Shown: positions 13,731 to 61,820 of the stretch, in pieces
Position numbering within the stretch: position 1 is the stretch's first letter
Layout: the number at the start of each line of letters is the position of its first letter
Position numbers and translations under genes: made by a program
The notes under the pieces: model-generated
The model's database searches: none
What the model was told of the DNA's origin: nothing
Seen by the model: only the letters and a program-made list of their open reading frames with translations
Source of the DNA: Naegleria gruberi
Lineage: Eukaryota
Length of the DNA: 64,000 bases
NCBI GenBank assembly: GCA_000004985.1
Contig: GG738870.1
Direction: 5' to 3' (one strand)

Positions 13731-14780
13731 ATGGCTGTAACAGGAAAACCATCAAGCAGCTCTTCACGGAGGACTAATAGTGCACCTAAACCAACATCAA
13801 TATTAAGCAGGAAGGATGTTGAAATTAATAGTAAATACAAAAGAGAACCAACTTTTGTAGATTTGTATCATCAACAAGGTATGTTTCTCCAAGTCCGAAA
13901 ATAAGATCTTATACTTTCTCAAATAGCAAGAGATGCAAAGCTCTACTATCATCAACACGGAAATAGAAATGTTCAGCTGGACTATACGCCCAATAATAGT
14001 TTTGTTGAAAAAAGGGAACCTCACTTTGTGGATTACACAAAAAAGGGACAATATTTCAATAGATTATCGACATTAATTAATGATCAACCATCCTCTTTAG
14101 ATTATACTCCAAATTATTCATATCTTCATGAACGAGTAAAGGGAGGTATAAATATGAGAAAGTCAACAGATAGAGAAACTCATTTTCATAATATTAATGA
14201 AGGGAAGAAACAACAAACAAAAGCAGTAGCATATGTAACACCAAAATCATCCTTAATAGACGATCAACAAAATAAGTTTGTTAAAAGATCTACAAATATT
14301 TATCAAGGAAAAGAATCTCATCCACCTGATTTTTTCAGAACTACCTCAAGAAAAGAAGAAAAGAAGCCAGACACTTCGAACACTAATTATACGCCGTCAT
14401 ATTCTTTAACAACAAGCAGAACAACCCACTATTACGATTTTGAAAAGACAACAGACAGAGAAAAAGCAAAGACATCATGGATACCTTCAAGGTCTCAATT
14501 GGGTAAACATTACGATGTTGCTTATGATGTTGTTGAAATACCTTCCAAAAACTATGTAAATATGAAACGATCAGCTGGTAGAACTGCTCCTAAAAAAGGA
14601 GTAACAGTGGATTTATCTTATACTCCTATTCACAAATTAACAGAGAAGAATTTGGGATGGTCAACTGATTTATTCTTATCTACTGGAAGGGCTGATGATG
14701 TAAAAGCGATAACACAGAGTGCAGATAACTTGGTAAGAAGAGTAAGAGGAGAATTAAGAAAATTTAATAATTCGGAATAA
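13731..14780 (+). CDS. hypothetical basic protein with repeated (D/N)YTP motifs; exons 13731..13878 and 13927..14780
   Basis: ATG at 13731. GTATGT donor at 13879, AG acceptor at 13925-13926, phase 1. Continues into ORF 14028..14780. Motifs DYTPNNSF, DYTPNYSY, NYTPSYSL, SYTPIHKL. Confidence 0.45.
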
Positions 14781-14786
14781 ACTCAT

Positions 14787-17333
14787 TTAATTCTTTCGTT
14801 TATAGAAGTAGAGGTAGCCCATATCGAAAGGTGTGTTTTCACTTTGTAAAACTTTGCTATCATTAAACAAAACCCATCTCTTTTCACCATTTCCAACATC
14901 CTTCTTGAGATGGCAAACATAGTGACCACATGAAGTATTTGAACCCATATGACTAATGAAACCAACAAGTTCATACTTTCCACTTCCATCCAAATACTCT
15001 TCTTCTTTCTTTTCAGCTGGTTTTTCATTAGAAGCTTCATTAAGATAACTGTCCATATCATCCATATGACTGAAGAGCCATTCAGCAGCTCTTTCAATAT
15101 TGTTTTGAGTTTGCTTTAAAGCAACAACAGCATGAGTGGAAGGGAAACCAAGATTAGCTAGTGATTCAATGGCATCAGCAGAAGGAGCATTTCCTGATGA
15201 GCTCTTTTCTTGTTTAGCTTCAGGAAGTGGATTATCAATTTCAGGATCATCACAATGCTCAAATACCCATTCCATAGCCTCATTGACACCCTTATTGTTG
15301 GATTTCCAAGCACCTCTCTTAGCTCTATTTTCTGGAATTCCCATTTCTACCAAAGATTGAACGATTTGCATATCAACAAAAATGGATTCTGTCTTCTTTT
15401 CATCACTTGGAAGTTCTTGTTCATTTGGTTTAAGTCCAGTTCCTCTGAGATGAGTAATATCAATCTCTTCAGCATCAGTAATAAATACATCCAATTTCTT
15501 TGGAACCCATCCATCTAAAATAAACTTTCTTACTTGAACAGCCAAATATTGTGGGAAAGTTGCAAGACTAGTTTGTTTCAAGCCAATAGTATTTCTTCCA
15601 AGGGCAGAGCTATAGAAATGATCAACAGGTTCTGTCTCAGCAAAGGCTTCAATACACTTAGACATTGGAATCATTGGTCTAATTTGTTGTTTCTTTTCAG
15701 TACTTGTACTCAAAGGCTTGCTGTTTATATTCTCAGCCAATTTGAGTTCTTTTTCTATTCTTTCTCTTTCCTTCTCTTGTTTACAGAACTCTTCATATTC
15801 TGCCTTATTGGTTGCTTCAGAAAGTGGAACTGGGAGTGAAATCAAATTATCCTTTCTGTAAGTATATTTAACCTTAGATGTTTCTGAGCATTCAATTCTT
15901 TCTTCCACATTGTAATTGAAAATACTATTTACAGAGTCTGTACAGTTAATTCTCTTGTCTTCTCTTTCGATTAATTGGAGTAAGTGTTGGTAAAATTCTA
16001 CAGCATCTTGTTGTCTCATAGTGCTGAACTCTGGATGGCCCTTTCCAACAACATTCTTGAATGATCTTGGTGGAATACCTTCTTGGAATGAATCGACGTG
16101 CTCTTCTGACTTGGAATAATCTCCAGAAAGTAATCCATTAGCGAGTTTTGCCATTTGAAGAGAGAAAGTATCCAATGAACTAGATCCTGTATAACAAGAC
16201 AATTCCTTATCGTGATATCTTTCTTGAACTTCTGGGAATGAGAAAAGAGTTTGCATGACACTAGCCAAATAGCAAGAATTACCAATGTTCTTCAAACCAG
16301 TAAAACCTGGCCCATACATTGGTTGCAAATGCTTATCAGATTCTTGAATTCTAGTAAAATCAAAGTTCAAATTTTGGTCCAATTCCATTTCAGCCATAGT
16401 TTTAGTTGTTTTCTTCATTTCTCTGATATTAATTCCAAAATATTCCAAATGTTCAACAAGCTTGGAATCCTTAACCATCTTATCTTCAGCATATGAATAT
16501 ACGTCAGCCTTTGGTTCTCCGTTATCATCCAATTGAATAGTTCCCAATTTGACACAAACAGGGAATCCAGTCTTTTGATAATGTTCAACAGCATGATTAT
16601 TACCACCAGTACCATCCCAGAATTTTCTACCACATCCAATATGACCGTCAGAAAGATTCAACCAAAGATTATCTGTGATATCACACTCAGCACACTTCCA
16701 TCCATGAGCTGGGACTTTAATATTTCCAATTTGTTTAAGCTCCATAGTATGTTTAGATTCAGTTAACTCTTCACCTTCCCATTTGAGAACTTCTTGTTTA
16801 CGTTCTGCAGATTGGTTTTCCAAAATACCTTTAATTGAAAGTTTAACTTTCTCAGGTAAATCATTATTTGGTAATGGTATTACAACATTATTTGGTTCTA
16901 ATAATACAAGTGACAACAATTCATCATAAAGTTTTTCGTCATTTTCTTCCTCTTCTTTGATTTGGAATCCTCCTTCAACACCAATAGCCATTTTGGTTGG
17001 TTGATCTTCAGATTTTTCTTCAATAGGCTTTTCCTTCTTGATCTTTTTAATATTCAAGAATACAGTATTACCAGTTAATTGATGATGTCTTCTTGTGTAC
17101 TTTGGAGAGAAAGCCAAGAATGTATTCAAACAAACATTGATTCCTCCTTCCGATTTCTAATGATCAAACCAATAAAAGTTACTTTTATACACAAGTTTAA
17201 AAACAAATATACTTACTGGTGAATCAAAAGAAAGACAACATTCTTCCTTATGAATTGGAGTATGACTAGTTGGAATATTGATCCTGCTAAAATCAAACTT
17301 TAAAGAAGAAACATCAACGTGGGATTGAGACAT
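14787..17333 (-). CDS. USP5: ubiquitin carboxyl-terminal hydrolase 5 (isopeptidase T) homolog; exons 17333..17217 and 17156..14787
   Basis: Exon 1 ends ...HKEECCLSFDSP and exon 2 begins KSEGGINVCLNTFLAFSPKY, closely matching human USP5 ([28 protein letters not shown]). Donor GTAAGT is the revcomp of ACTTAC at 17211-17216. ZnF-UBP, Cys box GLKNIGNSCYLASVMQ, two UBA domains and His box YELVGFISHMG...GHY. Confidence 0.8.
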
Positions 17334-17524
17334 TTTTTTTGTTCTAAATTTAATTTTATGGTTCCTCTCACTTGTAATGATCAGTCTTTGTTATCCAGAT
17401 GTTCAATTGCTATTTGTAAGAAGTTCTTGTTTTTCGGGTTCAACATCACACAAGAAGGCTTTTTTTCATCATCACTTGCATCAAATATAAACATAAATAA
17501 ATTTTAATTAATTTTATTAAAAAA

Positions 17525-19618: not shown

Positions 19619-19619
19619 G

Positions 19620-21491: not shown

Positions 21492-21591
21492 TTTTTATGT
21501 CAACACTTTTCACAATGCCCACCAACACATTCAATCGATTGGATAACACATTGAAATAAGATTAAAAAAAATAATAAGGATAATAAATTAT

Positions 21592-22254
21592 TTAAAAGAA
21601 ATCATCCAAATCTTTAGATTCTTCAACTTCGTCACCACCATCTCCGAAAAAGTCATCATTATAGTTGCTATGGGCTTTCTTCTTATTATTACTGGAGAAG
21701 AGTGAATCATACGATTTGGCTTCAGCTTCCTTCTTTCTTCTTTCTAATTCTTCCTTTTCCTTCTTTGCTCTTTCTTTTGATTCACGTTTTTGCATTTCTC
21801 TGAAATTCTTGTCTCTTTGCATCTTTTCCTTTTCAAAATCTACTTGTTTTTCAACTTGAGTCTTGTTTAATCTGTTACAGATTTCCTTATTCTTTTGAAT
21901 GACAACGTGACGAACAGCCTTTCTGTCAAAGAATCCAACTTCACCAGTGTCCATGTCACCTGTTTTTTTAAGATTTGAAGCCATTGTATAAACTACTTTG
22001 ACTTGTGGTTCCTTTTTACCTTGAATTGAATTGTATTTTGTAAGTTGAGACAAGTCTTCAATAACTTCCTTCGGAATATCGTTGATTGTCTGTCCTGTAT
22101 GTAAACGTAAATAAACGTGAGCAGAACTGAATCCGTCAACGTGGAACCAGACATCTTCTGGGAATGAATACTTGATGAGATCTTCATTTTCAAACTTGTC
22201 TCTACCCATGTAAACTACATAGGAAGGATCAATACAGGTAAAGTAAAAGACCAT
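21592..22254 (-). CDS. CCDC25: CCDC25 / Jlp2 homolog (NFACT-R_1 / DUF814 domain)
   Basis: [51 protein letters not shown] is near-collinear with human CCDC25 [50 protein letters not shown]/E-rich tail. Confidence 0.8.
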   Translation of the reverse strand: [220 protein letters not shown]

Positions 22255-22302
22255 TTTTTTTTAAATTTCAAAATTTAATTAATTGATGAATTTAAATTTA
22301 GA

Positions 22303-23970: not shown

Positions 23971-23987
23971 TTTTTTAATAAGACACT

Positions 23988-25868: not shown

Positions 25869-25922
25869 TAATAATAATATTGCATTAAATAAATTTAATA
25901 TTACAAAATTTAATTATTATAA

Positions 25923-26266: not shown

Positions 26267-26302
26267 GTAATAGTAAAATAGTAAAAAGTAACTAAGAGTG
26301 AT

Positions 26303-30765: not shown

Positions 30766-30836
30766 ACTTTGCCGCCAATTTCTCCCGCTTTTTGTTGGCG
30801 TTTTTCAGTACAACAATAAAAATCAATATCAAAAAA

Positions 30837-47713: not shown

Positions 47714-47926
47714 TTTTTTTTGAAGTTTACATTAATTGTCTTTCTATTATTGATTGTAATAGAATGTTGTATTATTAGATCAAGAAATAATTTTCTTTCA
47801 TTTAATAAGAATTGGTTCTAAACATTCTACAATTTAATGTGTTTGAAAATTTCAGAGTTAAGAATATATTGATTTTTAAAACCATTCAATTTTTTACCGC
47901 CAATTGTAGTTTTTCCCTCCAAAAAA

Positions 47927-50207
47927 ATGTCTTCGGATCTACAAACAAAACTTGATATTCTCAAAACGAGTAGTGTCTCTTCGAATTGTTTGAAACTTTT
48001 CCCTGTAGGAAAGAAGAGAACTCAAAGGGTCTGTGTTGGTGATAATGAAGGTGTAACCCAAGCATTTGCAATTAAGAAAGGATCTGTAAATGTATGTGTT
48101 GTATATTGAAATTAATTTCTTAAACTTGCAATAGACATCATTCAAAACGCTTGCTCAAGGAAAACCAATCAAAGGAGTCGAATTACATAAGAGTCGTGTT
48201 TTTTATGCTTGTGGACAAACAGTCAGAGGAGTTTCAAAGAAAGGAAAGGAATTTTATAGATTGGACAGTAATATTTCAGAAGATGCAACAGGAATGGCTG
48301 TAAGAGTTCCGAGCCTATGGTTAAGTGGTAATTATATTTTGTATCACTATGTAGATTCTGTTGAAAAGGGATTTTTCATGTCCCCTGATAGAATTAATAC
48401 AAGTGCACCTCATTTTGACTCTAATGATCCAGGTAATGATAAGGTTTTCGTTGGGTGTCAAGATAGAAAAATAAGAATTGTTAGAAACACTGATTGTGAT
48501 GGACATATTAGCACCGAAGGTGGTGTAACATCACTTCTAGTTAATGAAGAACAAAAAACTGTTTATTATGGAACGGAATCAGGTCATGTTGTTGCAATGC
48601 AAATGCAAGGAAATGATTCTAGCGCAAAATGGAAAATTGATTCAGAAAAATCTGGTGTAAATGAAATGATGTTGTATGATATTAATGGAGATGGAAAGGA
48701 TGAGATAATTATTGCAAGAAATGATGGTTCTTTGGAGATTTATTCATTCCTTAGTGGAAATGAACCAACAAGAATATTGAAAAGATCTCTTGATGAAAGT
48801 ATTACCTGTGTTCAAGCTGGTAAGCTTATTTCACCAGAGTTTGATGATATTTTGGTTTCAACTTTCAGTGGAAGATTAATTGCCTTTACAAACCATCAAT
48901 ACAATTCTACAAGCACTCCAACTTCAACATTTGGATTTTTGGACGATAAGAAGAAGGTTGTTGGGTTGTCAAAAACAGAAAGAATTTCAAATCTCCAGAA
49001 AGAATTGGAAGGATTAGAGGATAAGTTAGCAAAAGTCAAGGTTAACTATTCTAAATTATCTTCAGAAATTGTTGCTGTGCATTGTCAATACGAAACAAAA
49101 GCTTCATTCATTCTTGATACAAAAGAAGCTTTTTATAGGTTGAATGTAGAGTCAGATGTACATTTAGAAATGGTTATTATAAGATCAGAAATAGCACTAG
49201 ATTTATTAGATTCTTCCGGAGACAACAATGTAGTAGTTAGTAATATTACTGTCGATGAAAAGAAGGATGGTAGCAGCAAATTCATTGCGTCATTCAGATT
49301 TACTGATAATTGTAAGAGGATTGAAATTCTGTTGAGAACTTATGAAGGAAAATACGGAGCTATTGAGGCTTACACTATTCCTAAATTGAATCCAAAGATT
49401 TCAAAGATTCACCAATTCCATGTCAAACCACTCTCATTGCATGAAAGAATGGATGATGAGAAGGCAAAAACATTTATTCAAAATAGACCTTTGAACAAAT
49501 TGACTGTTTCAGGTTCTTTCACTCTTTCAGAGGTGCATTCTTGGATTGGGTTGTGTGTTGAAGGAATTCCTGACAAGTAAGTTTTAATACTCTTTAATTT
49601 ATTAACTTTATGTCAAGAGTATCTGACGATGAAGTTGTGTATTATTTCCATTCAACATTCCAAGAAACATGTCTAGTCATTAGATTGAAACGTGGTGAAG
49701 CTGTTGTTGAATCTGATAACATTACTGCAATTTCAGTTGTTGAAGAAGTTGTTACAAAGGCAGCCACTGATAGAAAGACTAAAGTTAATATCAGTTTTGG
49801 TATGTATTTAAATCATTGAGTTCTAATTCAATTTTAAAGATATTAACGATTCCTCTTTCGAATATGTACTGAATTTATTGTATCCTAAGGTTGAATATCA
49901 ACTTTCATTGAGTGAAAAAGTTAAACTTATTGATGCTTTGAAAGAAATTCAATTACAAGAAGAAGATGTATCTTTCCTCTCAAAAGAATTTAAAGCAATT
50001 TTAGAAGAGGCTGATCAATTACTTGAAGATTCTAAATATCAAACAAAGAGATTAGACTTTTTAAATGAAATTCTCATTAGATTATTCTTGGATTGTATTA
50101 AATTTAAGAGAAAGAATGCTCAAGTCTATCTTCCATCATTTAAACAATTACTGGAGAGTAGAAAGTACACTCTAGAATCAATTGTTAAATCCTTCAAACA
50201 ATTTTAA
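47927..50207 (+). CDS. BBS7: Bardet-Biedl syndrome protein 7 (BBSome subunit) homolog; exons 47927..48091, 48135..49576, 49618..49799 and 49840..50207
   Basis: Near-collinear with human BBS7. N-terminus KLFPVGKKRTQRVCVGDNEGVTQAF vs [37 protein letters not shown], EIYSF...EPTRIL. C-terminus YPKVEYQLSLSEKVKLIDALKEIQ vs [24 protein letters not shown]. Three introns of 41-43 nt (GTATGT/GTAAGT donors) place every junction at the conserved position. Confidence 0.8.
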
Positions 50208-50266
50208 ATAAAATAAGACTGTTAAGTTTTTGTTTGGCGCCAAAATTTAAAATCTAATCAAAAAAA

Positions 50267-52432
50267 ATGAAAGAAAAGATTAAAGACTTGTTCGGAAAAA
50301 AGGATGGTGTTGAAAATATTAAAGAACACATCCAGGATGGTATGTTTTGAAAGTAATAGTAGTAGTAGTTACTATTGTTTTATTGAAATGATATAAATTA
50401 TGCGGAATATGATGAATGATTTATATCATTGAAAAAACCTCTCTCTAATCATTTAATAATAACATGAATAACATTATTTGGAATATATTATTTGGATGTA
50501 TTTAATCAATTTTATTTAGAAATTGAAGATAGTGATGATGAAGGTGTTGAAATTGAAGAAATTTATAAAAAGAAGAGAACCTATTATGAAGTATTGGGTA
50601 TTAAAAAGACAGCAACACAAAAAGAGATTACAGATGCGTTTAGAAAAAAGTCTAGAAAATGCCATCCAGATGTTCAAAGATTAACTCCCGAACAAAAGAA
50701 GATTTTCAAACCAAAAGAATTGGAAGAATATTTTGAAGAAAAACAAAAACAACTTAATGAAGCCTATGAAGTACTTTCAAATGAAAGAAAAAGGGCACAA
50801 TATGATGTACTAGGAAAATGTATTACTTCGCTTGTATTAGTTGATGATTCTGAAAATGTAAATTTTCAAGAATTAAAAGAAAGATATAAGAATTACAAAA
50901 GAGAACAACGTAAAATTCATCGTGATACAAAAACTCAAGGAAGTAGTTCTGCAACACTAGGTGTAGATTTAGCTGGAATGTTTTTAAGTGAAGAGGAATC
51001 TGAACAAATTGTTGAAGAGGATGGTAAAACATATCGTGTCATTATTCCAAAAGTTTCATTTACAAATTCTTCATTTTCACAATCATTCCAAACACCAATT
51101 ACAAAATTAGATACTGTTCTATTTCATGGAAATGCAAATTGTGATCAATTAGAATCAGAAAATGTTGCTCATACAATTGCTGTTCAATGGAGACATGTTA
51201 TGGATCCAACAAAGGAATCAACTCAAATGGATCTTGCAACTATTTATTCAAGTCAAAATCCAACTGATTTATCAATTGTTGCTTCTGGAAGTACAAAATT
51301 ATCAGAATTTAGTCAAGGTTCAATGCAATGGGTAGGTCAATTTAATGGTGTTAGTCCTACTGTTTTAAATTGGTTAACTGTTGCTGGGTTCCAAGTTGTT
51401 TATAAGAGACAATTATTTTCTGATAATACTTTAAGTGGATCAATACTTTTCAGTTTCCCTAGGGATAATAATGTTACATTTACGCTAGATAAGAGTTTTG
51501 TACATGATGGATCTTCAATTTCTTCAGAATTAAGAATTGGTGCTGCTAGTTCTCATATTTCATGTGAATTTAGAAGAAATTTACCTGAATGGTTACGAAA
51601 TGCAATTGTTAGATCAAAATCTGAAGAAGAAGAGGATGATATTGAATTAGTATCGGATTTAACACTGTCGACAACAGATTTTGTTAGTGAATATGATCTT
51701 GGATTTAATATACTTTTAGTTAAACCAGTTGCAGAGGATACAGAAATAGGTTTTGGAGTTGGAGCTAGTATTCAAGATGGTGTTAATATGAAATTTAATC
51801 TTAGACGATTCAGACATAATTTCAATGTACCAATTGCATTGACACATATTTTTGATTGGAAAATGTTATTATTTGCTACCATAACACCAATTGCTTGTTT
51901 CTCTCTTTTCAAATCATTTATTTTTGATCCAATTTCAAGTTATTGGAAGAAGAAGGATATTAAGAATCAACGTAAGACTGCCTTCCTTGCAACACAAGAA
52001 AAGAGACAAAAGGCACTTGCTGAATTGGAAAAGATTAGAGAACAAGCACTTCAATCAAGAAATGCAGAAGAAGAAGTTAATGGTTTAGTAATTATTAATG
52101 CTAAATATGGAGACTTGGAAGGTGATATCGATGAAGGTGAATATCCATCATGGATTGATCTTACTGATCAACTTCAATTCTTGGTTTCAAATTCTAAACT
52201 TTACTTGCCAGAATATAGCAAGTCAAGAATGGAAGGTTCTTTTGATCCTGCACCAGGTGTATCAAAAACTTTACTTGTTTGGTATAGATTTAATGGTAAA
52301 ACTCATAGAGTTGAAGTAGATGATGAGGAAGAATTGAGAATTCCAATTCTGGAAGATGTAATTGATAAGACTGAAGGTAAAGCTACTGCTAGTGCATCCT
52401 CATCAGATGATGAATATGAAAGTGATGAATGA
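50267..52432 (+). CDS. DNAJC11: DnaJ homolog subfamily C member 11-like (J domain plus C-terminal DUF3395); exons 50267..50339 and 50520..52432
   Basis: Exon 1 MKEKIKDLFGKKDGVENIKEHIQD. GTATGT at 50340, 180-nt intron, AG at 50518-50519. J domain YYEVLGI...CHPD...AYEVLSNERKRAQYD. C-terminal INAKYGDLEG...LQFLVSNSKLYLPEYSKSRMEGSFDPAPGVSKTLLVWYRFNGKTHRVEVDDEEELRIP matches the DNAJC11 DUF3395. Confidence 0.65.
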
Positions 52433-52500
52433 GAAGATTCATTTTAGTTGATTTGGTTAATAATTTATTTGAAGCAGCTATTTAAGAATGTGCTGATTCA

Positions 52501-54998
52501 TTATTCTCCACAATAAAATACTTTTTCACCATCAATAATACAGAAAGTTTGATCTTCCAAGTCTTTCAAAACCTTTTGTAATTGAGATTTTGGAAGTGAA
52601 GCATTCTCTCCTGCACATAATAAGGTTTCCATTTCTTCAATTGCAAATCCATTTTGTGCATTTTCGAAGATAGCCTTCTTGATGATTTCAATAGCTTCCT
52701 CTTCATCAATTGGTTCATTCTCAAATTCTTCTCTACCTCTCTTATTAGTGGTAGCAGTAGTACTCTCATCAGATTGTTCAGTATTGGTGAGGGTGAGTGG
52801 TTTCTTCTTTTTCTTTTTACTCTCACCTTCCACAGATGAAAGTTGAGCAAGAATAGCATCACTATTGGTATTATTTAAAAACCAAATAGAGTAATACATT
52901 AATTTGAAAGCAGATTCAACATCACTCTTAGTAATTTCTGTACCTAATCTCATTTTTGCATGTGCAGTTGATAATCTAATTAATGATTCTAATGTTCTAG
53001 CTGTGATTGGAAGTGTTTTTTGACCATTATTTGTTCTCAATTCTAAATATTTGATATGCATAAATTCTCTAGCTTCTTCAGTTAACCTTGGTGTTGTTTG
53101 TTTGGCATATTTAACATATTTCTTCAAGAATGAGAGAGGTATAATTAAGTGTTGATGTTTCTTGCTATAATCATCATTTTCATGAGATATCTTTTCAATT
53201 TCATTAAAGAATGAATTCATTTCATCAAGTTCAGTTAAATGTGTTTCAGTTGAAATACCAACTTTAGAGGTGTGATAATCTTGTGATTGTTGTCTGTGAA
53301 CATTTAAAACGTGACTACCAACTAATCTATCTTTCTCTCCATTTCTTTCATCTAAAAGAATGTAAATTAAATCAAAACGTGATAGTAATGAATCAGGTAA
53401 ACCAATATTTCTTTGAATTGATACTTGTCTATTATATTGACCATAAATAGGATTAGCAGCAGCTAAAACTGAACATCTTGCATTCAATGAACAGTGAACA
53501 CCTGCTTTTTGAATTGTAACAGTTTGTTGTTCCATAACTTCGTGCATTGCAGTTCTATCTTGATCTGACATTTTGTCAAATTCATCAACACAAACAATAC
53601 CACGATCTGCTAAAACCATTGCACCTGCTTGAAGGGATCTTTCACCTGTATCTCTATCAGCAACAACAGCAGCAGTTAAACCAACACCTGTTGATGCTCT
53701 ACCTGTTGTTGAAATTGCCAATGGAACTGATTTTAAAACAAATCTTAACATTTGTGATTTGGCAGTTGATGGATCACCAACAAGTAAAATATTAATATCA
53801 CCTCTAAGGTGAGTATTGGAAGTTGAAAAATTCTTTTCTACACCCCCTAGCATTTGTAAAAGTAAACTCTTCTTAATAAAATCATGTCCAAATATAGTTG
53901 GTGCCATTCCCCTAGATAAAATATCAAAAAGATCACTTCTCTTTGATAATTTTGTAATGTTAACAATTTCATTTTCTGAAAATTCTTCTTGTTGTGTTTG
54001 AAGTTCTCTGGTTACAATATGATTTACAATGAAAACCATTCTCATTTTGCTTGATAACTTAGTTTGACTTTGACCTGATGGTGGTAATGCTTTATAAACA
54101 CCATACATTGTAACACGATCACCTGGTTTAACTTTATCAACCAAATCATCTTCTACTATACATTCAACTGATCTTGGAAGTTGACCTGCAGGTGCATTCT
54201 CAGGTGCTTCTTGAATAAATAATGTTTGTGTATCACAAAATTGTGATAATCCAAATTCAGTCTCCAATACATTACCATTAGCATCTTGAAAATTTAAATT
54301 TGAAGCACCAGCTCCTAAATTTGCATCACTTGTAAAGTCTGTTTCATGAAATTTGTTAGTATCTGGACAATAATAAATAACTCTCATCACCTTTTCAATA
54401 ACAGATGAGCCTTTTTTTGAAAGATTAGAACAAATTAATGTTAATGTGATGTTGATGTTTTGTTGATGAGCAAGTGATAGTTGATAACATATTAAAGTGA
54501 AAGTTAATAGTGTTCGTGTGTGTTTGATAATTGTCATCATTATTAATTATTGTGATAAATAGAAGAAAACAAACATTTTGTTATAATTCCAGATAAACAA
54601 AGTAATTGATTTGCATAATTTGCTAATAAATGTCTCGGAGAAACATGATTATTATCACCCAATTCACCATCAAAGCCTAAATGAATTTCAGCATTAGGTG
54701 ATTCTTCAAAAAACTTTGGAAAATTAATATTAATATATTCATGGAGTGCAATTTCAAAATCATATAAATAATTGAGAGGTTGTTGTTGTATTTGTTGTGA
54801 ACTTCGATGATCAAAATTTCTAAAGTCATTCATGTTAATTATTAATCGATTAATACCGGAATCACTTGAAGTACCACCATAATTACTACTACTACTACTA
54901 GCTATATTGTTTGACACAATTTCTGATAGTTTATCATGATACTTTCTATTGGAGAGCAGAAAGTTTTTAAATAAACTCTGATTGTGTTGTGATTGCAT
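52501..54998 (-). CDS. MCM7: DNA replication licensing factor MCM7 homolog; exons 54998..54575 and 54410..52501
   Basis: The N-terminal ORF 54543..54998 ends ...SPRHLLANYANQLLCLSGIITK. GTTTGT donor (revcomp of ACAAAC at 54569-54574), 164-nt intron, acceptor at 54411-54412, giving ...GIITK|CSSVIEKVMRVIYYCPD. AAA+ core [85 protein letters not shown]. Closest to MCM7 ([18 protein letters not shown]...[21 protein letters not shown]). The first 45 aa of the listed 679-aa ORF are intronic read-through. Confidence 0.65.
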
Positions 54999-55083
54999 TT
55001 TTTTTTAAAGTTTTATGTGTTTGGTTTAACGGTTAGTTTAATATTTTCGCGCCAAATTTTAATTAATATTCAACTACAAAAAA

Positions 55084-58063
55084 ATGGCTCCATCAAGTCT
55101 TGATCTTGGTATTGAATGGCATGCTATGGATAGAGCCCAACGTTTGGCTCAAATATACGAGTTGTATGAAAAGGCTCAAAAAGAAAAATTAAATACATTG
55201 GAATCAAAATTGGCAAATTCATCGGAACCATTAGAATATAGAGTTAGTGAGGATAAACCAATTGAATTGGATAGAGTCATTTCTTTCGTTCCCGATTCTT
55301 ACAGATCAAATGAAAATAGAGAGGATGTTATTTTGGAATTTGTTGAAAATTTTAATTTACAATATTCTCAATTATTTAAGGATAGAAAGCCTTTAATTTT
55401 ATATCCTGAAAATGAAGTTGGCATTCATGTAGGTATTTTATTCTAAAGATAGTGAATATAATATTATTTATTGGAACAATTGTTTTTATTTCTAATATTA
55501 AGAAATTTATTTGTACATACATTAAACCAACTCTATTGCCATATCCTGATTTATATGATGCTAAAGGAATAGCTCAGTTTATTCACCATCATACAACTTT
55601 TGAATCATTGGATAGACCATTTGAAATTGTAAGTTTGGATTGGTTTGTGTGAAATAATTCTAATAACTTTAGCCTGAAGTTGTTTGTAGTCCAACTACAA
55701 CTCTATATTGGCAAAAAGGAAATAGTTTTGATTTATCAACTTTATTAGTTTCTTTATTAATTGGAGCAGGATTTAATGCTTATTGTGTATCTGGATATGC
55801 TAAAAAGAGTATAGTTCTAAACGATCAAACTCAAAGTAATTCACCAATTGAAATTGAACCTGAAGAAGAGGAAATTACAGAAGAACAAAGAGTTTTCAAG
55901 CCAAGTAAATACAAATTAAAGACAAGACCAAATTTAACAAGTCATTTTAGAAGGGAAGATTATCCACTCAAGGAAGATATTGATATAATTGAAAGTAAAG
56001 TTAGTGAAGTATTAGGTGAAGATATTGAATCAGAGCAAGAAAAGATTCAACAAAATATTGGGAAAATTCTCAATTATGTTCATTGTTGGGTTGCAGTTCT
56101 ACCTGGTAGAAGAGATGTTAAAGCACCATTCTTTATTGAACCAAGTTCAGGACAAGTATTTGAATTGAATGAAATTGATGAAGCTGGTTATTATGGAATT
56201 GAAAGTTTGTGGAATCATGAAAACTATTGGTGTAATATTTCATTTGAAAAGAAGATTTCTGAAATTGTTTTTGATTTGAAGAATTTACGTCATTGGGAAT
56301 ATGTTTTCATTCAACATTCAAAAGAGAGTGAAATTGAAGATGAAGATGAAAATGCTCAAGAAGAGAAGAGAATTGAATTTTTAACTGTAGATGAAGGTGA
56401 ATATGATGATGATGTATTGGATGTTCCTTCTTCATGGGTTGGAAGAATTTCAATTGCTAAAAGAAAATATGAAGATAGATATCCGCTCAATTACAAACTT
56501 GTTGAATATGCGAATACTACTATTGAATATTTCTCTCCTTATTTTAGAAGTGATTTAGTTACAAAGATTATTACTTGTTTTCATGATGAAATGAAGGAAA
56601 AGACAAAAGAAATTCATTATTATTATAGTAATAGAAAGTAAGTTTCAATTATTATCATTATTAATGATTCACAATTTCATATTATTATATATGACAATTA
56701 ATACCAATTCAACTATAGAGATTTATTAAGAAGAAGATCAGTCTATTACATTTATTCATCAGCAGATTCTGATGTACCAATTAGAGAGAGAATTCATGAA
56801 TGGTTTGATCCTGGAAGAAAGACAACTTCTAATTTTGAAGCCTTGAAAGAATTTGTATTTGAGAAGGGAGTTAGAAGAGAATATAAATTTTATAGTGAAG
56901 CAAGATTGGATGGATTAGAAAAGAGAACTGAATTATTTGAATCTAAAAATTTAATTCAACCTAAAAAAGTAATTGAATATTTCCATAATAGAATTGATTT
57001 CGGAGATTATTTATGTTATAGATCTGTTACTTATGATATTGATAAATCAAGTGCAGGATTATTAAGTCAAGATCATCCAGAAGATGATAAATATGGACCA
57101 ATTATTGGAGATTTAGGATCAACACAAAATAATAATTCAAATGGATTGAGTGGATCAATGATTGATTTTTCAAATACAACTGATAAAAGTTTTACAGATG
57201 GAGCCTTAACAAGAAGAAAACAATTGAATGATAATATCATTATTAAAATGACAGAAAAATTCCTTAGAGATGAAAGTAGAAATGCTAATGAAGATGTTGC
57301 CAAGAGAACATTCTATATTGTTGATAAAAAGATTAGATTAGAATATCATTATGGTGAAGGTAAAATAACAAGATCAGTGAGAGAATATACAAAAGATGGT
57401 CAATTTTATACAGAAATTATTGATCCATTCATGCCAAGACCTAAACTTGTTGATACAGTTGAAGAATATCATGCACTCTTACAAACTGAAGTTAAATGTA
57501 AAGAAGATATTATTAAGAGTACTGCTGAAATGGCAAATATACTTCAAACAAGATATTCAGAAGAGAAGAATATTCAATTTACCACAACTATTTATGATGT
57601 TGAAAGAAATAGACCAACTGAAGAAGAATTGAGATTATTAAGAGAAAAGGAAAGAGAATTAGAAGAACAACGTAAGAATAAGGACCTAGTTGATCATTTA
57701 ATACCTAAAGATGGTGTTAAAAGTGTTCAACAAGCTGAAGAAATTTATTATACAGTTATGAAAGATCTTAAAGATCAACTCATGATGAGAATTAATATTA
57801 TTGAAGAAAGATTACAAAAAGAAAAACAAAAATTGGCAAGAAGAAGAACCATGTATCAAAAAAGTCAAGAAGGAGTTGATAGAAATAGTGAAGAATATGT
57901 TCAATTCTGTCAAGATACTTTATTCAAAATTAAAATTCTCAAACAAAGAGCAGAAGATCACAATGCAAGAGCTGCAAAGAAATTTGCAGAATTGAAAGAA
58001 AAATTATTGAATCACAAACAATTAGGAGGATTCTTAAAACATTTGAAAAATAAGAAGAATTAA
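55084..58063 (+). CDS. DRC7: dynein regulatory complex subunit 7 (DRC7/CCDC135)-like, with a transglutaminase-like core; exons 55084..55428, 55503..55628, 55673..56637 and 56719..58063
   Basis: Introns GTAGGT(55429)..AAG(55502), GTAAGT(55629)..TAG(55672) and GTAAGT(56638)..TAG(56718) join four listed ORFs in frame. Transglutaminase-like triad context FDLSTLLVSLLIGAGFNAYCVSGYA and NYVHCWVAVLPG. Long C-terminal coiled coil. Size (about 926 aa) and architecture match DRC7. Confidence 0.6.
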
Positions 58064-58412
58064 TTGTTTGGTGAAATAGTACATATTTAATTATTAATAA
58101 ATATAATATTATACTATAAATAGACTAACCGTAATTGTATTTAACAATGTATTGTACAGTAAAGTTTCAAATTTATTAAGGGGTGGTTGATAAATTAATT
58201 GATGGTTCAATATTTGTTCATGATGATACATGTAGTTGTGGTTGTTAACATGTTCTTAATAGTGAGTGCACTGAACCAATGTTAAGAGATTGATTGTTAT
58301 TTAATTGTTATATACTCTCGTTGTTGTGTGAGAGGAGTATTTGAACTTGGTGGTAGTTACTATTAAGATTAAGAATAATCATCATCTTGTTCATCTTCAT
58401 CTCTTTAAAAAA

Positions 58413-60649
58413 ATGAATGATCATCACAATGATGAAAACTCTAAGGAAAATATAGATTATATAAAACAATCTAATGATGATCAATCCTTATATCTATTAA
58501 ATACTACCATTACTATCACTACTACAACTTCTAATAATAATAATAATAATAATACTATTAATAATACTTTTGAAAATAATAATGAAAGAATACAAGATGA
58601 AGATGAATTATCACTTCATTTAGGACAAGAACATTTAAATAATAACACAATTACATATGATGAAGCTATTAATGAGTTAGGATTTGGTTTATTTCAAATT
58701 TTATTAATGCAAGTTTGTGGTGCTGGTTGTTTGGTAAGTTTTTATATATTAAATAAATTATTTAAGTAATATTAAATTATTTAACATTACAATATTTAAT
58801 ATATTATTGTAATAGTTTGATGGTATTGAATTATCTTTAATTTCATTTGTAATTCCAGGTATTAAACAACAATGGAATTTAAATGCTATTGAAACAGGTG
58901 CATTAGGAAGTATTGTATTTTTTGGAATGATGTTTGGTGCTTGGTTTGGAGGTTTTTTAAGTGACAAATTTGGAAGAAAATTAGTTTTTTGTAGTTCCAT
59001 TTTTATTTCTTCTGTATTTTTATTAGCAAGTTGTTTTTCTGTTCATTTAGGAATGTTAATTACTTTAAGATTTTTTGTAGGTGTTGGTTTAGGTGCAATG
59101 GGTATGTTTTTATTTATACTTTCTATATTTAGTATTAATAATTTTATATTAAAAAATATAATTTAATAACAATTAATTTAAAAATAATAATTTAATATTT
59201 AAAATAGTACCATGTGATTTTTCATTAATGTTAGAATTTTTACCATCTAAAAATAGAGGTGCCTTATTAGGATTATTACAAATATATTGGAGTGTAGGAG
59301 CAGCACTTGAATGTTTAATTTCCTATTTATGTATTGAAGTAATTTCTAAACAATTTGAAAAAGGAAATCTATTAAATGATGGATGGAGATGGTGCATGTT
59401 TTTTTCTTCCATATTTGGATTTTTAATTTTCTTTTTAAGATTATTTGTTCCAGAATCTCCAAGATTTTATTTAATTAAAAGAAATTTTGAAAAAGTTGAT
59501 CAAGTAATTGAAAAAATTTCAAAATTAAATAGAAAATCTTTAAATGATAAAAAAGTAAGATTAGCAACAACTACTAGAACACAATCTTCAATGAAATTAT
59601 TTTCCAAATCAAGAGATTTCCAAATTGAGATGACACATCAAGAAGAATTTAAATCTTTAACTATTTTTAATCAATTTAAAATGTTATTTTCAAAGGAATT
59701 TTTATTTTCAACAATATTATTATTTATTATTTGGTTCATGTTAAGTTATGGTGGTTGGGGTTTTAATTGTATGTTTTAATATTAATTTATTAATTTTATT
59801 TAATTTAATTTTATTTTAATTTTATTTAAATTTTATTTAATTTAATTTTTTAATATTTTTAAAATAGTTTTAATTCCAATTGTATTTGAAAAAATTCAAC
59901 ATAATAATGTATATTTAAATTCCTTTTATGTAACAAGTGTTGGATTTATATCGAATATATTAACATTATTTATTATAGATAAAATGTCAAGAAGAACACT
60001 TATGGGAATAACATTTATATTTACAGGAATATTTACAGCCTTAGTAGGAGTATCAAATAATCCATATTCAGTTTTAACATTTTCAATGTTAGCAAATTTC
60101 ATGTCTTCATTTCCATGGGCATTATTATATACTTATACTCCTGAATTTTATCCAACTTCAATTAGAACAACTGGAATGGGTGCATGTTCTGTTTTTACTA
60201 GATTAGCAGGTGCAATTACTCCAATGTTTGGTACTTTGGTTTTAGAATCTGGTTATTTCATTCCTTTTTTAACTTATGGAATTGCTTTAATCATTGCTGG
60301 TATTTGTTCTTTTTTATTAAGAAAGGAAACTTTAAATTCTACTTTACAAGATGTTTCAATTCATCAAAAATCAAAAGAAGAATATTTTTATTCTGAATTA
60401 TCTTTAAATGAACCTATTTTAAATGATTTAATTCAACAAGATGATAATAATACTAATAATACTAATAATAATAATAATATGGAGGAGGATGACAACATGG
60501 ATGAACAGAGTCAACAAACAAGTCATAACATTAATAATAATAACAACAGCATGTTATTTGAAAGAAATGTTTCTATTGCTACTGAGCCATCAATGAAACA
60601 AGATGAAATTGATTCAAATGATTATGTTATTGCTTCAAATAAATTCTAG
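58413..60649 (+). CDS. major facilitator superfamily transporter (SV2/organic-cation/sugar-transporter-like) with N-rich low-complexity N- and C-termini; exons 58413..58733, 58816..59101, 59208..59768 and 59868..60649
   Basis: Three AT-rich introns (GTAAGT at 58734; GTATGT at 59102; GTATGT at 59769) join four ORFs. MFS signatures GxLSDKFGRK, FFVGVGLGAMG|VPCDFSLMLEFLPSKNRG, and about 12 TM helices. Confidence 0.7.
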
Positions 60650-60815
60650 TTTCATTCAGCTTTTCAAACATTGTATTTCAATTAAATTTCAATTAAATTT
60701 CAATTTTATTTTTTTAATAAGGAAGTAAACAAGTAATTTAATATTGTCATACAAGAGCCTTTCTTTTAAATTTACAATATGCTTAGAGTTTTTTGACCAA
60801 TGTAGTCAAAAATAA

Positions 60816-61820
60816 TTAAAAAGTACCAGACATGTTAACAGAACCACCGAATAGAACTGAACGTGTAGGGAATGATTTAGTACCACAACTCATTGGTTTG
60901 AAAATTGGTTTCTTTTGTTCCTTTTCATCCTTTTTAGATAAAGTTCTCTTATCATATGGATCTTCAATATAAGCAGGGAAATCACTTCTTTGTTTAACAG
61001 GAGATGGATAGAATGGTTTTCTCTTATCTTCATTTTCCTTCTTTGGTGAAGAAGATTCCTTTTCTAATGCCTTTTTAATTGTTGCTTCAACTTTATCATC
61101 TGTACCTAAAATTCTAGGAGCAGCAACAGATTTATGAGTATCAAAATAATCTAAATGATGTGATGATGAAATAAAAGCCTTCTTTGCAACTTGTTTAGCC
61201 TTTTCATTTTCCTTTTCCTTTTTCTTTTCCATTGAATGATCAAATGGATCAGTTTCGTATTTGTATTCTGTACCTCTTGAAATTGTTAAACCTAAATATC
61301 CAAATGTACCTCTTTTAGGTGGAGATGTATAAATTGGTCTCTTTTGTTCCTTAATTGGTTGTGGTTTTTCACCCTTAGCTAAAACTTCATATTCTTGTTC
61401 ATGTTGAAAAACAGAACCAATTGTACCATAATATGTTCCCAAGCCTACTGATTTCTTTGGAGGTGATGATGGTTTAAATGGTGTCTTGTGTGTTTGTTGT
61501 ACTTTAACCTCATTTTCCTTTCTATACTTTCTTTCATTGGTTCCTGGATCCATATAAGGATCACCTTCATAAAGTGATTTAAAGTCTCCAAATGTAATTC
61601 CTTTACCAACTTTACCTCTCTTTGTTGGTCCAGTTAAAAATTGTTTACCAAGTGTTCTACCATCTTTCATTCGTTGGTCTCTTAATATTTTACTCTTATC
61701 ATATTCATCACCAATTGTTGTATATCCTAAATCAACTGGTTCGTTAACGTTTGGTTTGTTACTCATCTTATTGTTATTTTTATGATTGTCGTCGTAATAT
61801 TGTAGTAAATTTACAGTCAC
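60816..61820 (-). CDS. CFAP96: cilia- and flagella-associated protein 96 (C4orf47/UPF0602) homolog
   Basis: LGYTTIGDEYDKS (human EYITVGDKYVSQ). KTPFKPSSPPKKSVGLGTYYGTIGSVF (human KAFLPSNGEKKPCGLGSYYGTIGGPV). YTSPPKRGTFGYLGLTI (human YTNPGKKGTGYGYANITI). KPFYPSPVKQ / FKPMSCGTKSFPTRS repeats. Confidence 0.6.
   Translation of the reverse strand: MTVNLLQYYDDNHKNNNKMSNKPNVNEPVDLGYTTIGDEYDKSKILRDQRMKDGRTLGKQFLTGPTKRGKVGKGITFGDFKSLYEGDPYMDPGTNERKYRKENEVKVQQTHKTPFKPSSPPKKSVGLGTYYGTIGSVFQHEQEYEVLAKGEKPQPIKEQKRPIYTSPPKRGTFGYLGLTISRGTEYKYETDPFDHSMEKKKEKENEKAKQVAKKAFISSSHHLDYFDTHKSVAAPRILGTDDKVEATIKKALEKESSSPKKENEDKRKPFYPSPVKQRSDFPAYIEDPYDKRTLSKKDEKEQKKPIFKPMSCGTKSFPTRSVLFGGSVNMSGTF

What the first reader, a model, noticed from the sequence alone, without database searches (positions are those of the whole stretch)
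13731..61820. Unlinked cilium/flagellum genes co-located in one dense stretch (BBS7, DRC7, CFAP96, a TPX2/FAM161-like gene and a YTP-repeat protein)
BBS7 (47927..50207), DRC7 (55084..58063) and CFAP96 (60816..61820) lie within 14 kb. A FxAxPxP-motif TPX2/FAM161-like gene (30837..32900) and a (D/N)YTP-repeat basic protein (13731..14780) that looks like an axonemal inner protein sit nearby. These genes first establish that the organism is flagellated, which rules out a dictyostelid despite the AT-richness and N-runs. The neighbourhood is also unusually enriched for ciliary functions. In an amoeboflagellate such a neighbourhood could be co-regulated during flagellar differentiation. The genes alternate with housekeeping genes (CBP20, DNAJC11, MCM7), so this is not an operon.
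Basis: partly seen in the sequence, partly recalled or inferred. Interest (0 to 1): 0.6.

Follow-up and report, generated by a model that had tools for sequence, protein, structure and literature searches.

The report
Naegleria cilium genes sitting close together
Four real cilium or centriole genes and one probable axoneme gene lie within 48 kb of the published Naegleria gruberi genome, but this is ordinary inherited gene order within what chance allows, not a dedicated flagellar gene cluster.

Summary
The window is Naegleria gruberi scaffold_26:352001-416000, from a published amoeboflagellate genome. The gene calls hold. BBS7, DRC7, CFAP96 and FAM161 all match family-specific Pfam models (E 1e-18 to 1e-47). 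The YTP-repeat protein has no Pfam family, but its repeat matches one solved chain, 'DMAP6' (E 3e-5), probably an external axonemal doublet protein.

Two side calls are off. The 'MCM7' gene is MCM3, and 'CBP20' is an unconfirmed RRM protein.

Four or five ciliary genes among about 33 is 3-6 times expectation. A simulation with 300-700 ciliary genes in 15,727 predicts 2-27 such windows and 1-13 such triplets genome-wide by chance.

Naegleria fowleri keeps BBS7-DNAJC11-DRC7-CFAP96 contiguous, without MCM3 or the transporter. Willaertia, Acrasis and two other eukaryote contigs do not. Housekeeping blocks (ATAD2-YTP-USP5) are conserved at least as deeply.

The genes have mixed orientations and separate promoters, so this is no operon. 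No X-box is present.

Leads:
- The MFS transporter between DRC7 and CFAP96 is induced about 15-fold in differentiation.
- An E2F-like site (TTTSGCGCCAAA) lies upstream of all four ciliary genes.
- GACTGTAAATTT is shared by the YTP and CFAP96 promoters.

Verdict: observation confirmed, functional cluster not supported, low interest.

The parts
13731..14780 (+). YTP-repeat basic protein, 333 aa, two exons (13731-13878, 13927-14780). Lineage-restricted; probably a doublet-microtubule-associated protein.
   Evidence: Splice and translation. No Pfam match. Close homologues only in N. lovaniensis and Willaertia. Distant HMM hits in the flagellates Rhizomastix and Paratrimastix. The repeat profile A4 hits PDB 9y6s_4H 'DMAP6' at E 3e-5.
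30837..32900 (+). FAM161-family gene (centriole inner scaffold / TPX2-like microtubule binder), with introns.
   Evidence: Pfam FAM161A_B at E 2.5e-18 on ORF 30792-32072.
47927..50207 (+). BBS7 (BBSome subunit), with introns.
   Evidence: Four BBS7-specific Pfam domains. 70% identical to the N. fowleri BBS7 locus.
50244..52432 (+). DNAJC11 (mitochondrial; not ciliary). Lies between BBS7 and DRC7 in both Naegleria species.
   Evidence: Pfam DnaJ, DnaJ-like_C11_C and the DNAJC11 beta-barrel. Synteny. The 5' end is approximate.
52501..54998 (-). Absent from this position in N. fowleri. Shares an 85-bp divergent promoter with DRC7.
   Evidence: PDB sequence search: MCM3 E 1.8e-150, MCM7 2e-89. Locus L006 lacks it.
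55084..58063 (+). DRC7 (nexin-dynein regulatory complex subunit 7), with introns.
   Evidence: Pfam MORN_DRC7, DRC7_C and CEPT76_peptidase. 77% identical to N. fowleri.
58341..60649 (+). MFS/SV2-like transporter (jgi_1151), between DRC7 and CFAP96. Induced in differentiation.
   Evidence: Pfam MFS_1 and Sugar_tr. RNA-seq Data S2: up_in_differentiation TRUE, log2FC 3.9/4.1/3.6/2.4 at 20-80 min. Adjacent to CFAP96 in Willaertia too.
60816..61766 (-). CFAP96 (NAEGRDRAFT_58174), single exon, 316 aa.
   Evidence: Pfam CFAP96-like at E 2.9e-44. Exact database match. Homologues named CFAP96 in animals.
55046..55057 (.). Palindromic E2F-like site TTTCGCGCCAAA in the MCM3/DRC7 divergent promoter (-35 from the DRC7 ATG).
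   Evidence: A GGCGCCAAAA site is kept upstream of DRC7 in N. fowleri, where MCM3 is absent.
47897..47903 (+). E2F-like half site CCGCCAA, 30 nt upstream of BBS7, in a promoter shared with the RRM gene.
   Evidence: Not conserved in N. fowleri, which reads CTGCCAA.
30772..30778 (+). E2F-like half site CCGCCAA, 65 nt upstream of FAM161.
62205..62211 (-). E2F-like site GCGCCAA, 439 nt upstream of CFAP96.
61807..61817 (-). ACTGTAAATTT element in the CFAP96 promoter (about -45).
   Evidence: The exact 11-mer occurs only twice in the window against 0.23 expected. It is conserved, inverted, in the N. fowleri CFAP96 promoter.
13633..13643 (+). ACTGTAAATTT element in the YTP-gene promoter (-98).

Best explanation
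This is an ordinary, gene-dense piece of the Naegleria gruberi nuclear genome (scaffold_26:352-416 kb, about 33 genes). Four independently transcribed cilium or centriole genes (FAM161, BBS7, DRC7, CFAP96) and one probable axonemal microtubule-associated protein lie among housekeeping genes.

Each gene has its own short promoter. Orientations are mixed, so there is no common transcript.

The local excess of ciliary genes is best explained as chance juxtaposition that arose in the Naegleria lineage. It has been passively retained as part of the usual 3-5-gene microsynteny blocks. Induction of these genes at flagellate differentiation is inferred to be driven gene by gene through promoter elements, not by their linkage.

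Shown here: gene identities, organism, gene order in four heterolobosean species, and the chance expectation.

Inferred: that there is no selective or regulatory role for the linkage.
For: - Identities.
- Organism and scaffold coordinates.
- Mixed strands and interspersed DNAJC11, MCM3 and MFS genes.
- Chance expectation: 2-27 windows with >=4 ciliary genes, and 1-13 triplets within six consecutive genes, for 300-700 ciliary genes in 15,727.
- The linkage CBP20-like/BBS7/DNAJC11/DRC7/CFAP96 is kept in N. fowleri.
- The linkage is lost elsewhere. In Willaertia, CFAP96 lies next to MFS and LCM with no DRC7 or BBS7 within 10 kb. In Acrasis, DRC7 stands alone. Two other eukaryote contigs show no linkage.
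- The conserved blocks always include non-ciliary genes. The ATAD2-YTP-USP5(-Nup88) block is conserved as far as Willaertia. Conservation is therefore not specific to ciliary genes.
- Two window genes with expression data (CCDC25-like, p24) are not induced in differentiation.
Against: - In N. fowleri the three ciliary genes sit within four consecutive genes. By my own arithmetic this is expected only about 0.3-4 times per genome, so it is at the edge of chance.
- The MFS transporter between DRC7 and CFAP96 is induced about 15-fold in differentiation.
- Three of the five window genes with accessible RNA-seq rows are 'up in differentiation', against about 18% (6 of 33) in a sample of rows from other scaffolds.
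- All four verified ciliary genes have an E2F-like SCGCCAA site upstream, against 5 of 28 other genes. My hypergeometric calculation gives p about 0.013, but it is post hoc, and three of the sites lie in shared promoters.
- The true number and positions of ciliary genes in this genome could not be obtained here, so the null model uses a bracket rather than data.
Confidence: 0.7

Rival explanations
1. This is a selected co-expression neighbourhood. BBS7-DRC7-CFAP96, with FAM161 and the YTP gene further out, lie in a chromatin domain that opens at the amoeba-to-flagellate transition. Linkage then tightens or speeds co-induction and is maintained by selection, as proposed for adjacent co-regulated gene pairs in yeasts and other eukaryotes.
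For: - The block is conserved and even tighter in N. fowleri.
- The interspersed MFS transporter is strongly induced in differentiation.
- Three of five window genes with data are induced.
- There is a precedent for adjacent co-regulated pairs across eukaryotes (PMC3500266).
Against: - The linkage is not kept in Willaertia or Acrasis.
- Conservation in N. fowleri equals that of housekeeping blocks.
- DNAJC11 is retained inside the block.
- The CCDC25-like and p24 genes in the window are flat in differentiation.
- The enrichment is within the genome-wide chance range.
- MFS induction could be read-through from DRC7, which ends 584 nt upstream on the same strand.
Confidence: 0.18
2. There is a shared cis-regulatory programme rather than a positional one. 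The ciliary genes here are co-induced because each carries an E2F-like site (TTTSGCGCCAAA or CCGCCAAWT) close to its start codon. This would reflect a cell-cycle-type (E2F/DP) input into de novo centriole and flagellum assembly, analogous to E2F4/5-MCIDAS in animal multiciliated cells. Linkage would be incidental.
For: - SCGCCAA occurs 12 times against 1.3 expected, and 8 of the 12 are intergenic.
- It is present upstream of FAM161, BBS7, DRC7 and CFAP96.
- It is retained upstream of DRC7 in N. fowleri although MCM3 is gone.
- Willaertia CFAP96 has CCCGCCAAAAA at -62.
- MCM4 and APC/C subunits are transiently up in differentiation.
- RFX, FOXJ1 and XAP5 are absent from Naegleria, so the regulators are unknown.
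Against: - The motif was found post hoc in only four promoters.
- It also sits upstream of DNAJC11, an LRR gene and a flippase.
- Three of the sites are in divergent promoters shared with non-ciliary genes.
- The BBS7 site is lost in N. fowleri, and no site was found upstream of N. fowleri CFAP96.
- The YTP and MFS genes lack it.
- No genome-wide test was possible.
Confidence: 0.1
3. This is an operon or polycistronic unit of flagellar genes.
For: Only the short intergenic distances (85-600 bp).
Against: - The genes lie on both strands in the order +,+,-,+,+,-.
- MCM3 and DRC7 are divergent.
- DRC7 and CFAP96 are convergent in N. fowleri.
- Housekeeping genes are interspersed.
Confidence: 0.01

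Closest known systems
Adjacent or neighbouring co-regulated gene pairs and co-expression neighbourhoods in eukaryotes (e.g. ribosome-biogenesis gene pairs; Arnone et al. 2012, PMC3500266)
   Same: Functionally related genes, presumably co-induced, lie next to or near each other in all orientations, each with its own promoter. In N. fowleri, DRC7 and CFAP96 are an immediately adjacent convergent pair.
   Different: No statistical excess could be shown for Naegleria ciliary genes. The pairing is conserved only within one genus. Co-expression of the five genes was not verifiable here.
Annotated N. gruberi and N. fowleri gene models for BBS7, DRC7, CFAP96 and FAM161 (published genomes; the flagellar gene sets of Fritz-Laylin et al. 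2010, cited from memory and via PMC4819266)
   Same: These are the same genes. The window CFAP96 is identical to NAEGRDRAFT_58174. N. fowleri has annotated orthologues carrying the same Pfam domains.
   Different: Nothing differs at the gene level. Only their proximity is a new remark.
[quoted passage not shown] 2025, PMC7617938) and PDB 9y6s chain 4H 'DMAP6'
   Same: The YTP protein shares a roughly 30-residue repeat (L-D-Y-x-P-x5-9-P/G-x-hydrophobic-D/N-hydrophobic-x-K-x3-R) with DMAP6 (E 3e-5, five repeat matches). Both are basic and predicted to be extended. Both come from Discoba, if 9y6s is a trypanosomatid entry, which is unverified.
   Different: The full-length profile match is not significant (E 0.2). 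The organism and position of DMAP6 were not verifiable. No localisation or expression data exist for the Naegleria protein.
RFX/X-box and FOXJ1 ciliary regulons of animals; E2F4/5-MCIDAS programme of multiciliated cells
   Same: Many ciliary genes are switched on together during ciliogenesis. An E2F-like site is present in these Naegleria promoters.
   Different: No X-box is present in the window. RFX, FOXJ1 and XAP5 are absent from Naegleria. The E2F link is only a motif resemblance.

Membership tests
BBS7 (BBSome subunit 7) | BBS7-specific beta-propeller, GAE, platform and hairpin domains in order | tested here: met
   Beta-prop_BBS7 E 1.1e-47, BBS7_GAE 1e-21, BBS7_pf 7e-9, BBS7_hp 5e-29. 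The paralogue model BBS2_Mid scores only 41 bits.
DRC7 (CCDC135/FAP50) | Peptidase/transglutaminase-like domain, then the DRC7 MORN domain, then the DRC7 C-terminal domain | tested here: met
   CEPT76_peptidase E 1e-4 (below the gathering score), MORN_DRC7 4e-30, DRC7_C 2e-23. The N. fowleri orthologue is annotated with the same three domains.
CFAP96 (C4orf47/UPF0602) | Full-length match to the CFAP96-like model, and homologues named CFAP96 | tested here: met
   PF15239 E 2.9e-44 over profile positions 11-291 of 296. All 37 homologues carry PF15239, including animal CFAP96.
FAM161A/B | UPF0564/FAM161 domain with the TPX2-like F-x-A-x-P-x-P motif | tested here: met
   PF10595 E 2.5e-18 (66.6 bits, cut-off 29.9), covering profile positions 2-114 of 364 on the first large ORF. 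RFKANPVPK is present. The C-terminal exons were not scored separately.
Axonemal doublet-associated repeat proteins (DMAP6-like; possibly related to STPG/SHIPPO repeats) | Significant sequence match of the repeat to a protein seen in an axoneme structure | tested here: inconclusive
   The repeat profile A4 hits only 9y6s_4H 'DMAP6' (E 3e-5). The full-length profile gives E 0.2. There is no Pfam SHIPPO-rpt match in the Naegleria protein, and one distant homologue has a sub-threshold hit at E 0.0099. The nature of 9y6s is inferred from its naming only.
Axonemal doublet-associated repeat proteins (DMAP6-like) | Localisation to the flagellum, or induction during flagellate differentiation | not testable with these tools
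   The expression row is not in the stored part of Data S2.
Operon / polycistronic unit | All genes on one strand with one promoter | tested here: not met
   Strands are +,+,-,+,+,- from BBS7 to CFAP96.
Co-expression gene neighbourhood | Statistical excess of same-function genes over the genome-wide chance expectation | tested here: not met
   Simulation: 2-27 equivalent windows and 1-13 equivalent triplets are expected by chance. The real genome-wide gene positions were not available.
Co-expression gene neighbourhood | Co-induction of the member genes and of the interspersed neighbours | tested here: inconclusive
   MFS, aldo-keto reductase and ZFAND1 are up. The CCDC25-like and p24 genes are flat. 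Rows for the five ciliary genes, DNAJC11 and MCM3 are not held.
Co-expression gene neighbourhood | Linkage conserved beyond background synteny | tested here: not met
   Kept in N. fowleri only. Absent in Willaertia, Acrasis and two other contigs. The housekeeping block ATAD2-YTP-USP5 is conserved more deeply.
RFX/X-box ciliary regulon | X-box (GTNRCC-N0-3-RGYAAC) upstream of ciliary genes, and an RFX factor in the genome | tested here: not met
   Zero X-box matches on either strand of the window. RFX is reported absent from Naegleria (PMC12183034).

The most novel reading that the evidence does not exclude
The BBS7-(DNAJC11)-DRC7-(MFS)-CFAP96 block is a genus-conserved, co-induced flagellar neighbourhood. 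Its genes, like FAM161, would be switched on through E2F-type promoter sites (TTTSGCGCCAAA / CCGCCAAWT). If so, a cell-cycle E2F/DP module drives de novo centriole and flagellum assembly in a discoban. That would parallel E2F4/5-MCIDAS in animal multiciliated cells and fill the gap left by the absence of RFX, FOXJ1 and XAP5 in Naegleria.
Probability: 0.08. Interest if true: 0.65.

Novelty: already known. Interest (0 to 1): 0.2.

Why it matters
If the clustering were functional, it would be a rare example of positional co-regulation of ciliary genes in a free-living protist. It would also offer a handle on the unknown transcriptional control of Naegleria's one-hour flagellum assembly.

As it stands, the stretch mainly confirms that the first-stage reader can identify ciliary genes from raw sequence. 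The only items with possible follow-up value are two promoter motifs and a lineage-restricted repeat protein that may be an axonemal microtubule-associated protein.

Tried and rejected
- **Gene context of the window in N. gruberi.** A look-up of NAEGRDRAFT_58174 by exact protein found nothing on record. The CCDC25-like gene returned only a 2-kb metagenome contig.
- **Fritz-Laylin & Cande 2010 microarray paper (PMC2987438).** Not held.
- **RNA-seq Data S2 of bioRxiv 10.1101/2024.01.08.573270.** The stored file is truncated at about jgi_448xx. Searches by ID and by coordinate for BBS7, DRC7, CFAP96, FAM161, YTP, DNAJC11, MCM3, Exo84, p115 and others found nothing. A tab-spanning search failed. 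Only five window genes were recovered.
- **YTP protein.**
  - Pfam up to E 1 gave nothing.
  - The single sequence and the 5-sequence profile against PDB gave nothing meaningful.
  - The 13-sequence profile put DMAP6 on top, but at E 0.2.
  - Only the repeat-unit profile was significant.
  - A literature search for 'DMAP6' found only the Drosophila DMAP60 papers.
- **DRC7 homologue search.** It returned no annotated N. lovaniensis or Willaertia protein, so DRC7 and BBS7 positions in those genomes remain unknown.
- **X-box scan.** Zero hits.
- **Other uncharacterised window ORFs as hidden ciliary genes.** 17525-19618 is Nup88. ORFs 3373-4526, 35828-37534, 8470-9261 and 85-879 match nothing.
- **ACTGTAAA in Willaertia.** The hits there are mostly in or next to the BTB/TLD paralogue genes, some with what look like 3' splice-site contexts, so they were not counted as promoter evidence.

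Full report
**Origin of the window.** Exact-sequence look-ups place four window proteins in Naegleria gruberi NEG-M on a 418,085-bp contig. These include CFAP96, which is NAEGRDRAFT_58174, and the CCDC25-like protein, which is NAEGRDRAFT_33927. In the RNA-seq table of bioRxiv 10.1101/2024.01.08.573270, jgi_33927 lies at scaffold_26:373592-374254 (-). The same gene is at 21592-22254 (-) in the window. The window is therefore scaffold_26:352001-416000 in the same orientation. It is 29-35% G+C and holds about 33 genes with few short introns. A 211-base N run at 62467-62677 is an assembly gap.

**Checking the observation.** Family-specific Pfam models confirm four of the five genes.
- BBS7: Beta-prop_BBS7 1.1e-47, BBS7_GAE 1e-21, BBS7_pf 7e-9 and BBS7_hp 5e-29.
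- DRC7: MORN_DRC7 4e-30, DRC7_C 2e-23 and a weaker CEP76-type peptidase-like match.
- CFAP96: 2.9e-44 over nearly the whole profile.
- FAM161A_B: 2.5e-18, with the RFKANPVPK motif.

The CFAP96 start is the ATG at 61766, not the GTG at 61820. Its database homologues all carry PF15239 and include animal proteins named CFAP96.

The fifth gene splices as 13731-13878 + 13927-14780 and gives a 333-aa basic protein with four (D/N/S)YTP units. BBS7 to CFAP96 spans 13.9 kb.

- The MCM gene is MCM3 (E 1.8e-150 against 2e-89 for MCM7).
- 'CBP20' is an RRM protein with an RD-rich tail. Its matches to NCBP2 (1.8e-15) are weaker than those to nucleolin, PABP and PUF60 RRMs.
- DNAJC11 is confirmed.

The other window genes are ZFAND1, a CBS protein, an LRR protein, an ATAD2-like AAA+bromodomain protein, USP5, Nup88 and phosphatidylserine decarboxylase. 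Then come a CCDC25-like protein, an ankyrin protein, an EGF-repeat protein, an aldo-keto reductase, Exo84, TMEM50/UPF0220, p24 and DeoC. The list ends with a P4-type ATPase (flippase; assigned by eye from its translation, not scanned), p115/Uso1, an MFS transporter, a Ras-like GTPase and several unassigned ORFs. None of the unassigned ORFs could be tied to cilia.

**The YTP-repeat protein.**
- It has no Pfam family, even at E 1.
- Its close homologues are only in N. lovaniensis (63% identity), Willaertia magna (45%) and two unnamed environmental sequences.
- An exhaustive HMM search of 1.84 billion representatives found 19 relatives at E <= 1e-3. The only two that carry an organism name are from Rhizomastix libera and Paratrimastix pyriformis, which to my knowledge are flagellates. 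One relative has a sub-threshold SHIPPO/STPG repeat match (E 0.0099).
- A 30-column profile of 26 repeat units (consensus L-x-Y-x-P ... D-M ... R) gave a single significant match among 177,635 PDB sequences. That match is chain 4H of 9y6s, named 'DMAP6', at E 3e-5 with five repeat matches. The full-length family profile ranks the same chain first, but at E 0.2.
- 'DMAP' is the name given to external doublet-microtubule-associated proteins in the trypanosomatid doublet structures (PMC7617938). The organism of 9y6s and the position of DMAP6 could not be checked.

I therefore regard an axonemal microtubule-associated role as likely but unproven. If the name is a guide, the protein is external rather than 'inner'.

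**Is the co-location more than chance?** Four or five ciliary genes among about 33 is 3-6 times the expected 0.6-1.5 if the genome holds 300-700 ciliary or centriolar genes among 15,727. The gene count is from memory of the genome paper; PMC4819266 says 'about 16,000'.
- For one pre-chosen window, P(>=4) is 0.003-0.06.
- Random placement gives 1.7-27 such windows, and 1.1-12.8 triplets within six consecutive genes, per genome.

The real positions of Naegleria ciliary genes were not available, so this is a bracket and not a measurement.

**Gene order in relatives.** The order differs by species.
- **N. fowleri** (L006, VFQX01000017.1): the order is LCM, CFAP96 (+), DRC7 (-), DNAJC11 (-), BBS7 (-), then the RRM gene (+), all within about 10 kb. 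There is no MCM3 and no MFS transporter between them. Two short contigs, L004 and L007, show the same order.
- **Willaertia magna** (L008): the order is Exo84, an ankyrin gene, two BTB/TLD genes, LCM, CFAP96, the MFS transporter, a 273-aa gene, a homologue of the small gene 32928-33308, and others. No DRC7 or BBS7 lies within 10 kb. The CFAP96-MFS adjacency seen in N. gruberi is therefore older than the DRC7-CFAP96 adjacency.
- **Acrasis kona**: DRC7 has unrelated neighbours.
- **Two other eukaryote contigs**: DRC7 and CFAP96 each have unrelated neighbours.
- **The YTP gene** lies in an ATAD2-YTP-USP5 triad that is conserved in N. lovaniensis and in Willaertia, where Nup88 follows one gene further on. 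Outside that triad the neighbours differ.

Two points follow. Synteny blocks of 3-5 genes are the norm among these genomes. The ciliary block always carries non-ciliary passengers (DNAJC11, the RRM gene). Its conservation in N. fowleri therefore does not single it out. The N. fowleri arrangement, three ciliary genes in four consecutive genes, is expected only about 0.3-4 times per genome by my arithmetic. It sits at the edge of the chance range, and I count this as the strongest point for the rival view.

**Expression.** The stored copy of Data S2 is cut at about jgi_448xx and lacks the rows for all five ciliary genes. Five window genes are present.

| Gene | JGI model | Window position | up_in_differentiation | log2FC at 20-80 min |
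|---|---|---|---|---|
| MFS transporter, between DRC7 and CFAP96 | jgi_1151 | 58647-60352 | TRUE | 3.9 / 4.1 / 3.6 / 2.4 |
| Aldo-keto reductase | jgi_33950 | 26303-27398 | TRUE | rises to 3.7 |
| ZFAND1 fragment | jgi_33894 | 2059-2448 | TRUE | 2.0-3.7 |
| p24 | jgi_33925 | 33910-34547 | FALSE | 0.3 / -0.2 / -0.5 / -1.2 |
| CCDC25-like | jgi_33927 | 21592-22254 | FALSE | 0.3 / 0.4 / 0.9 / 0.8 |

In the same table part, 6 of 33 genes are TRUE. The paper reports 6,389 genes changing more than 2-fold in differentiation. Three of five is suggestive but tiny. The MFS signal could be read-through from DRC7, which ends 584 nt upstream on the same strand.

**Promoters.**
- There is no X-box on either strand. 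RFX, FOXJ1 and XAP5 are reported absent from Naegleria (PMC12183034).
- Reading the short upstream regions showed a G+C-rich element. SCGCCAA occurs 12 times against 1.3 expected, and no shuffle of 100 reached 12. Eight of the 12 are intergenic.
- Its sites are:
  - FAM161 at -65 (TTTGCCGCCAATTT).
  - BBS7 at -30 (ACCGCCAATTG), in a promoter shared with the RRM gene.
  - The 85-bp MCM3/DRC7 divergent promoter (TTTTCGCGCCAAATTT, a perfect E2F-type palindrome).
  - Upstream of DNAJC11 and of an LRR gene (TTTGGCGCCAAA).
  - 439 nt upstream of CFAP96.
  - Upstream of the flippase.
- In N. fowleri the site is kept upstream of DRC7, although MCM3 is absent there. It is also kept upstream of DNAJC11. 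It is lost at BBS7, and no site was found upstream of CFAP96. Willaertia CFAP96 has CCCGCCAAAAA at -62.
- Four of five ciliary genes against five of 28 others gives a hypergeometric p of about 0.013 by my calculation. The motif was found post hoc, and several sites are shared with non-ciliary genes.
- A second element, ACTGTAAATTT, occurs exactly twice in the window (0.23 expected). Both copies are in promoters, those of the YTP gene and CFAP96. The N. fowleri CFAP96 promoter holds the only ACTGTAAA in its 21-kb locus, as an inverted GACTGTAAATTT.

Both elements are leads and not findings.

**Conclusion.** The stretch is a normal part of a published genome. It holds independently transcribed genes in mixed orientation, with a local excess of ciliary genes that a genome of this size produces by chance. 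It is inherited within the genus like any other microsynteny block.

The best-supported mechanism is therefore 'no cluster mechanism': the genes are induced one by one at differentiation (confidence 0.7). A selected co-expression neighbourhood (0.18) and a shared E2F-like cis-programme (0.1) remain possible. Both can be decided with the full expression table and genome-wide gene coordinates. An operon is excluded by the orientations.

Noticed in passing
window 8258-8267, 50234-50243, 55046-55057 (also 30772, 47897, 42649, 62205): A palindromic E2F-type element (TTTGGCGCCAAA / TTTCGCGCCAAA) and half sites. SCGCCAA occurs 12 times against 1.3 expected, mostly 30-65 nt upstream of start codons. 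It is conserved upstream of DRC7 and DNAJC11 in N. fowleri. It is probably a general Naegleria promoter element.
   Followed up: partly
window 13633-13643 (+) and 61807-61817 (-); L006 9883: The exact 11-mer ACTGTAAATTT occurs only in the promoters of the YTP gene and CFAP96 (0.23 expected). GACTGTAAATTT is conserved, inverted, in the N. fowleri CFAP96 promoter.
   Followed up: partly
window 58341-60649 (+): The MFS/SV2-like transporter between DRC7 and CFAP96 (jgi_1151) is induced about 15-fold within 20 min of differentiation. It is adjacent to CFAP96 in Willaertia too. It is either a flagellate-specific transporter or read-through from DRC7.
   Followed up: partly
window 52501-54998 (-): The MCM gene is MCM3, not MCM7. 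It shares an 85-bp divergent promoter with DRC7 and is absent from this position in N. fowleri.
   Followed up: yes
window 47906-47926; L006 about 19960-19980: TTTTCCCTCCAAAAAA lies immediately before the BBS7 ATG and is conserved between N. gruberi and N. fowleri, while the rest of the intergenic region has diverged.
   Followed up: no
window 26303-27398 (-) and 1450-2448 (-): The aldo-keto reductase (jgi_33950) and ZFAND1 (jgi_33894) are both flagged up in differentiation (log2FC up to 3.7). They may reflect stress or metabolic responses of the differentiation protocol.
   Followed up: no
window 10284-19618; L002, L003: The ATAD2-like / YTP / USP5 (/ Nup88) gene order is conserved from N. 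gruberi to N. lovaniensis and Willaertia magna. In Willaertia this block and the CFAP96 block lie about 300 kb apart on the same contig.
   Followed up: yes
window 62467-62677: A 211-base run of N (assembly gap) interrupts a Ras-family GTPase gene (62454-63336, -).
   Followed up: no
window 32928-33308 (+); L008 14611-15111: A small unassigned gene directly after FAM161 has a homologue 4 kb from CFAP96 in Willaertia. Its function is unknown.
   Followed up: no
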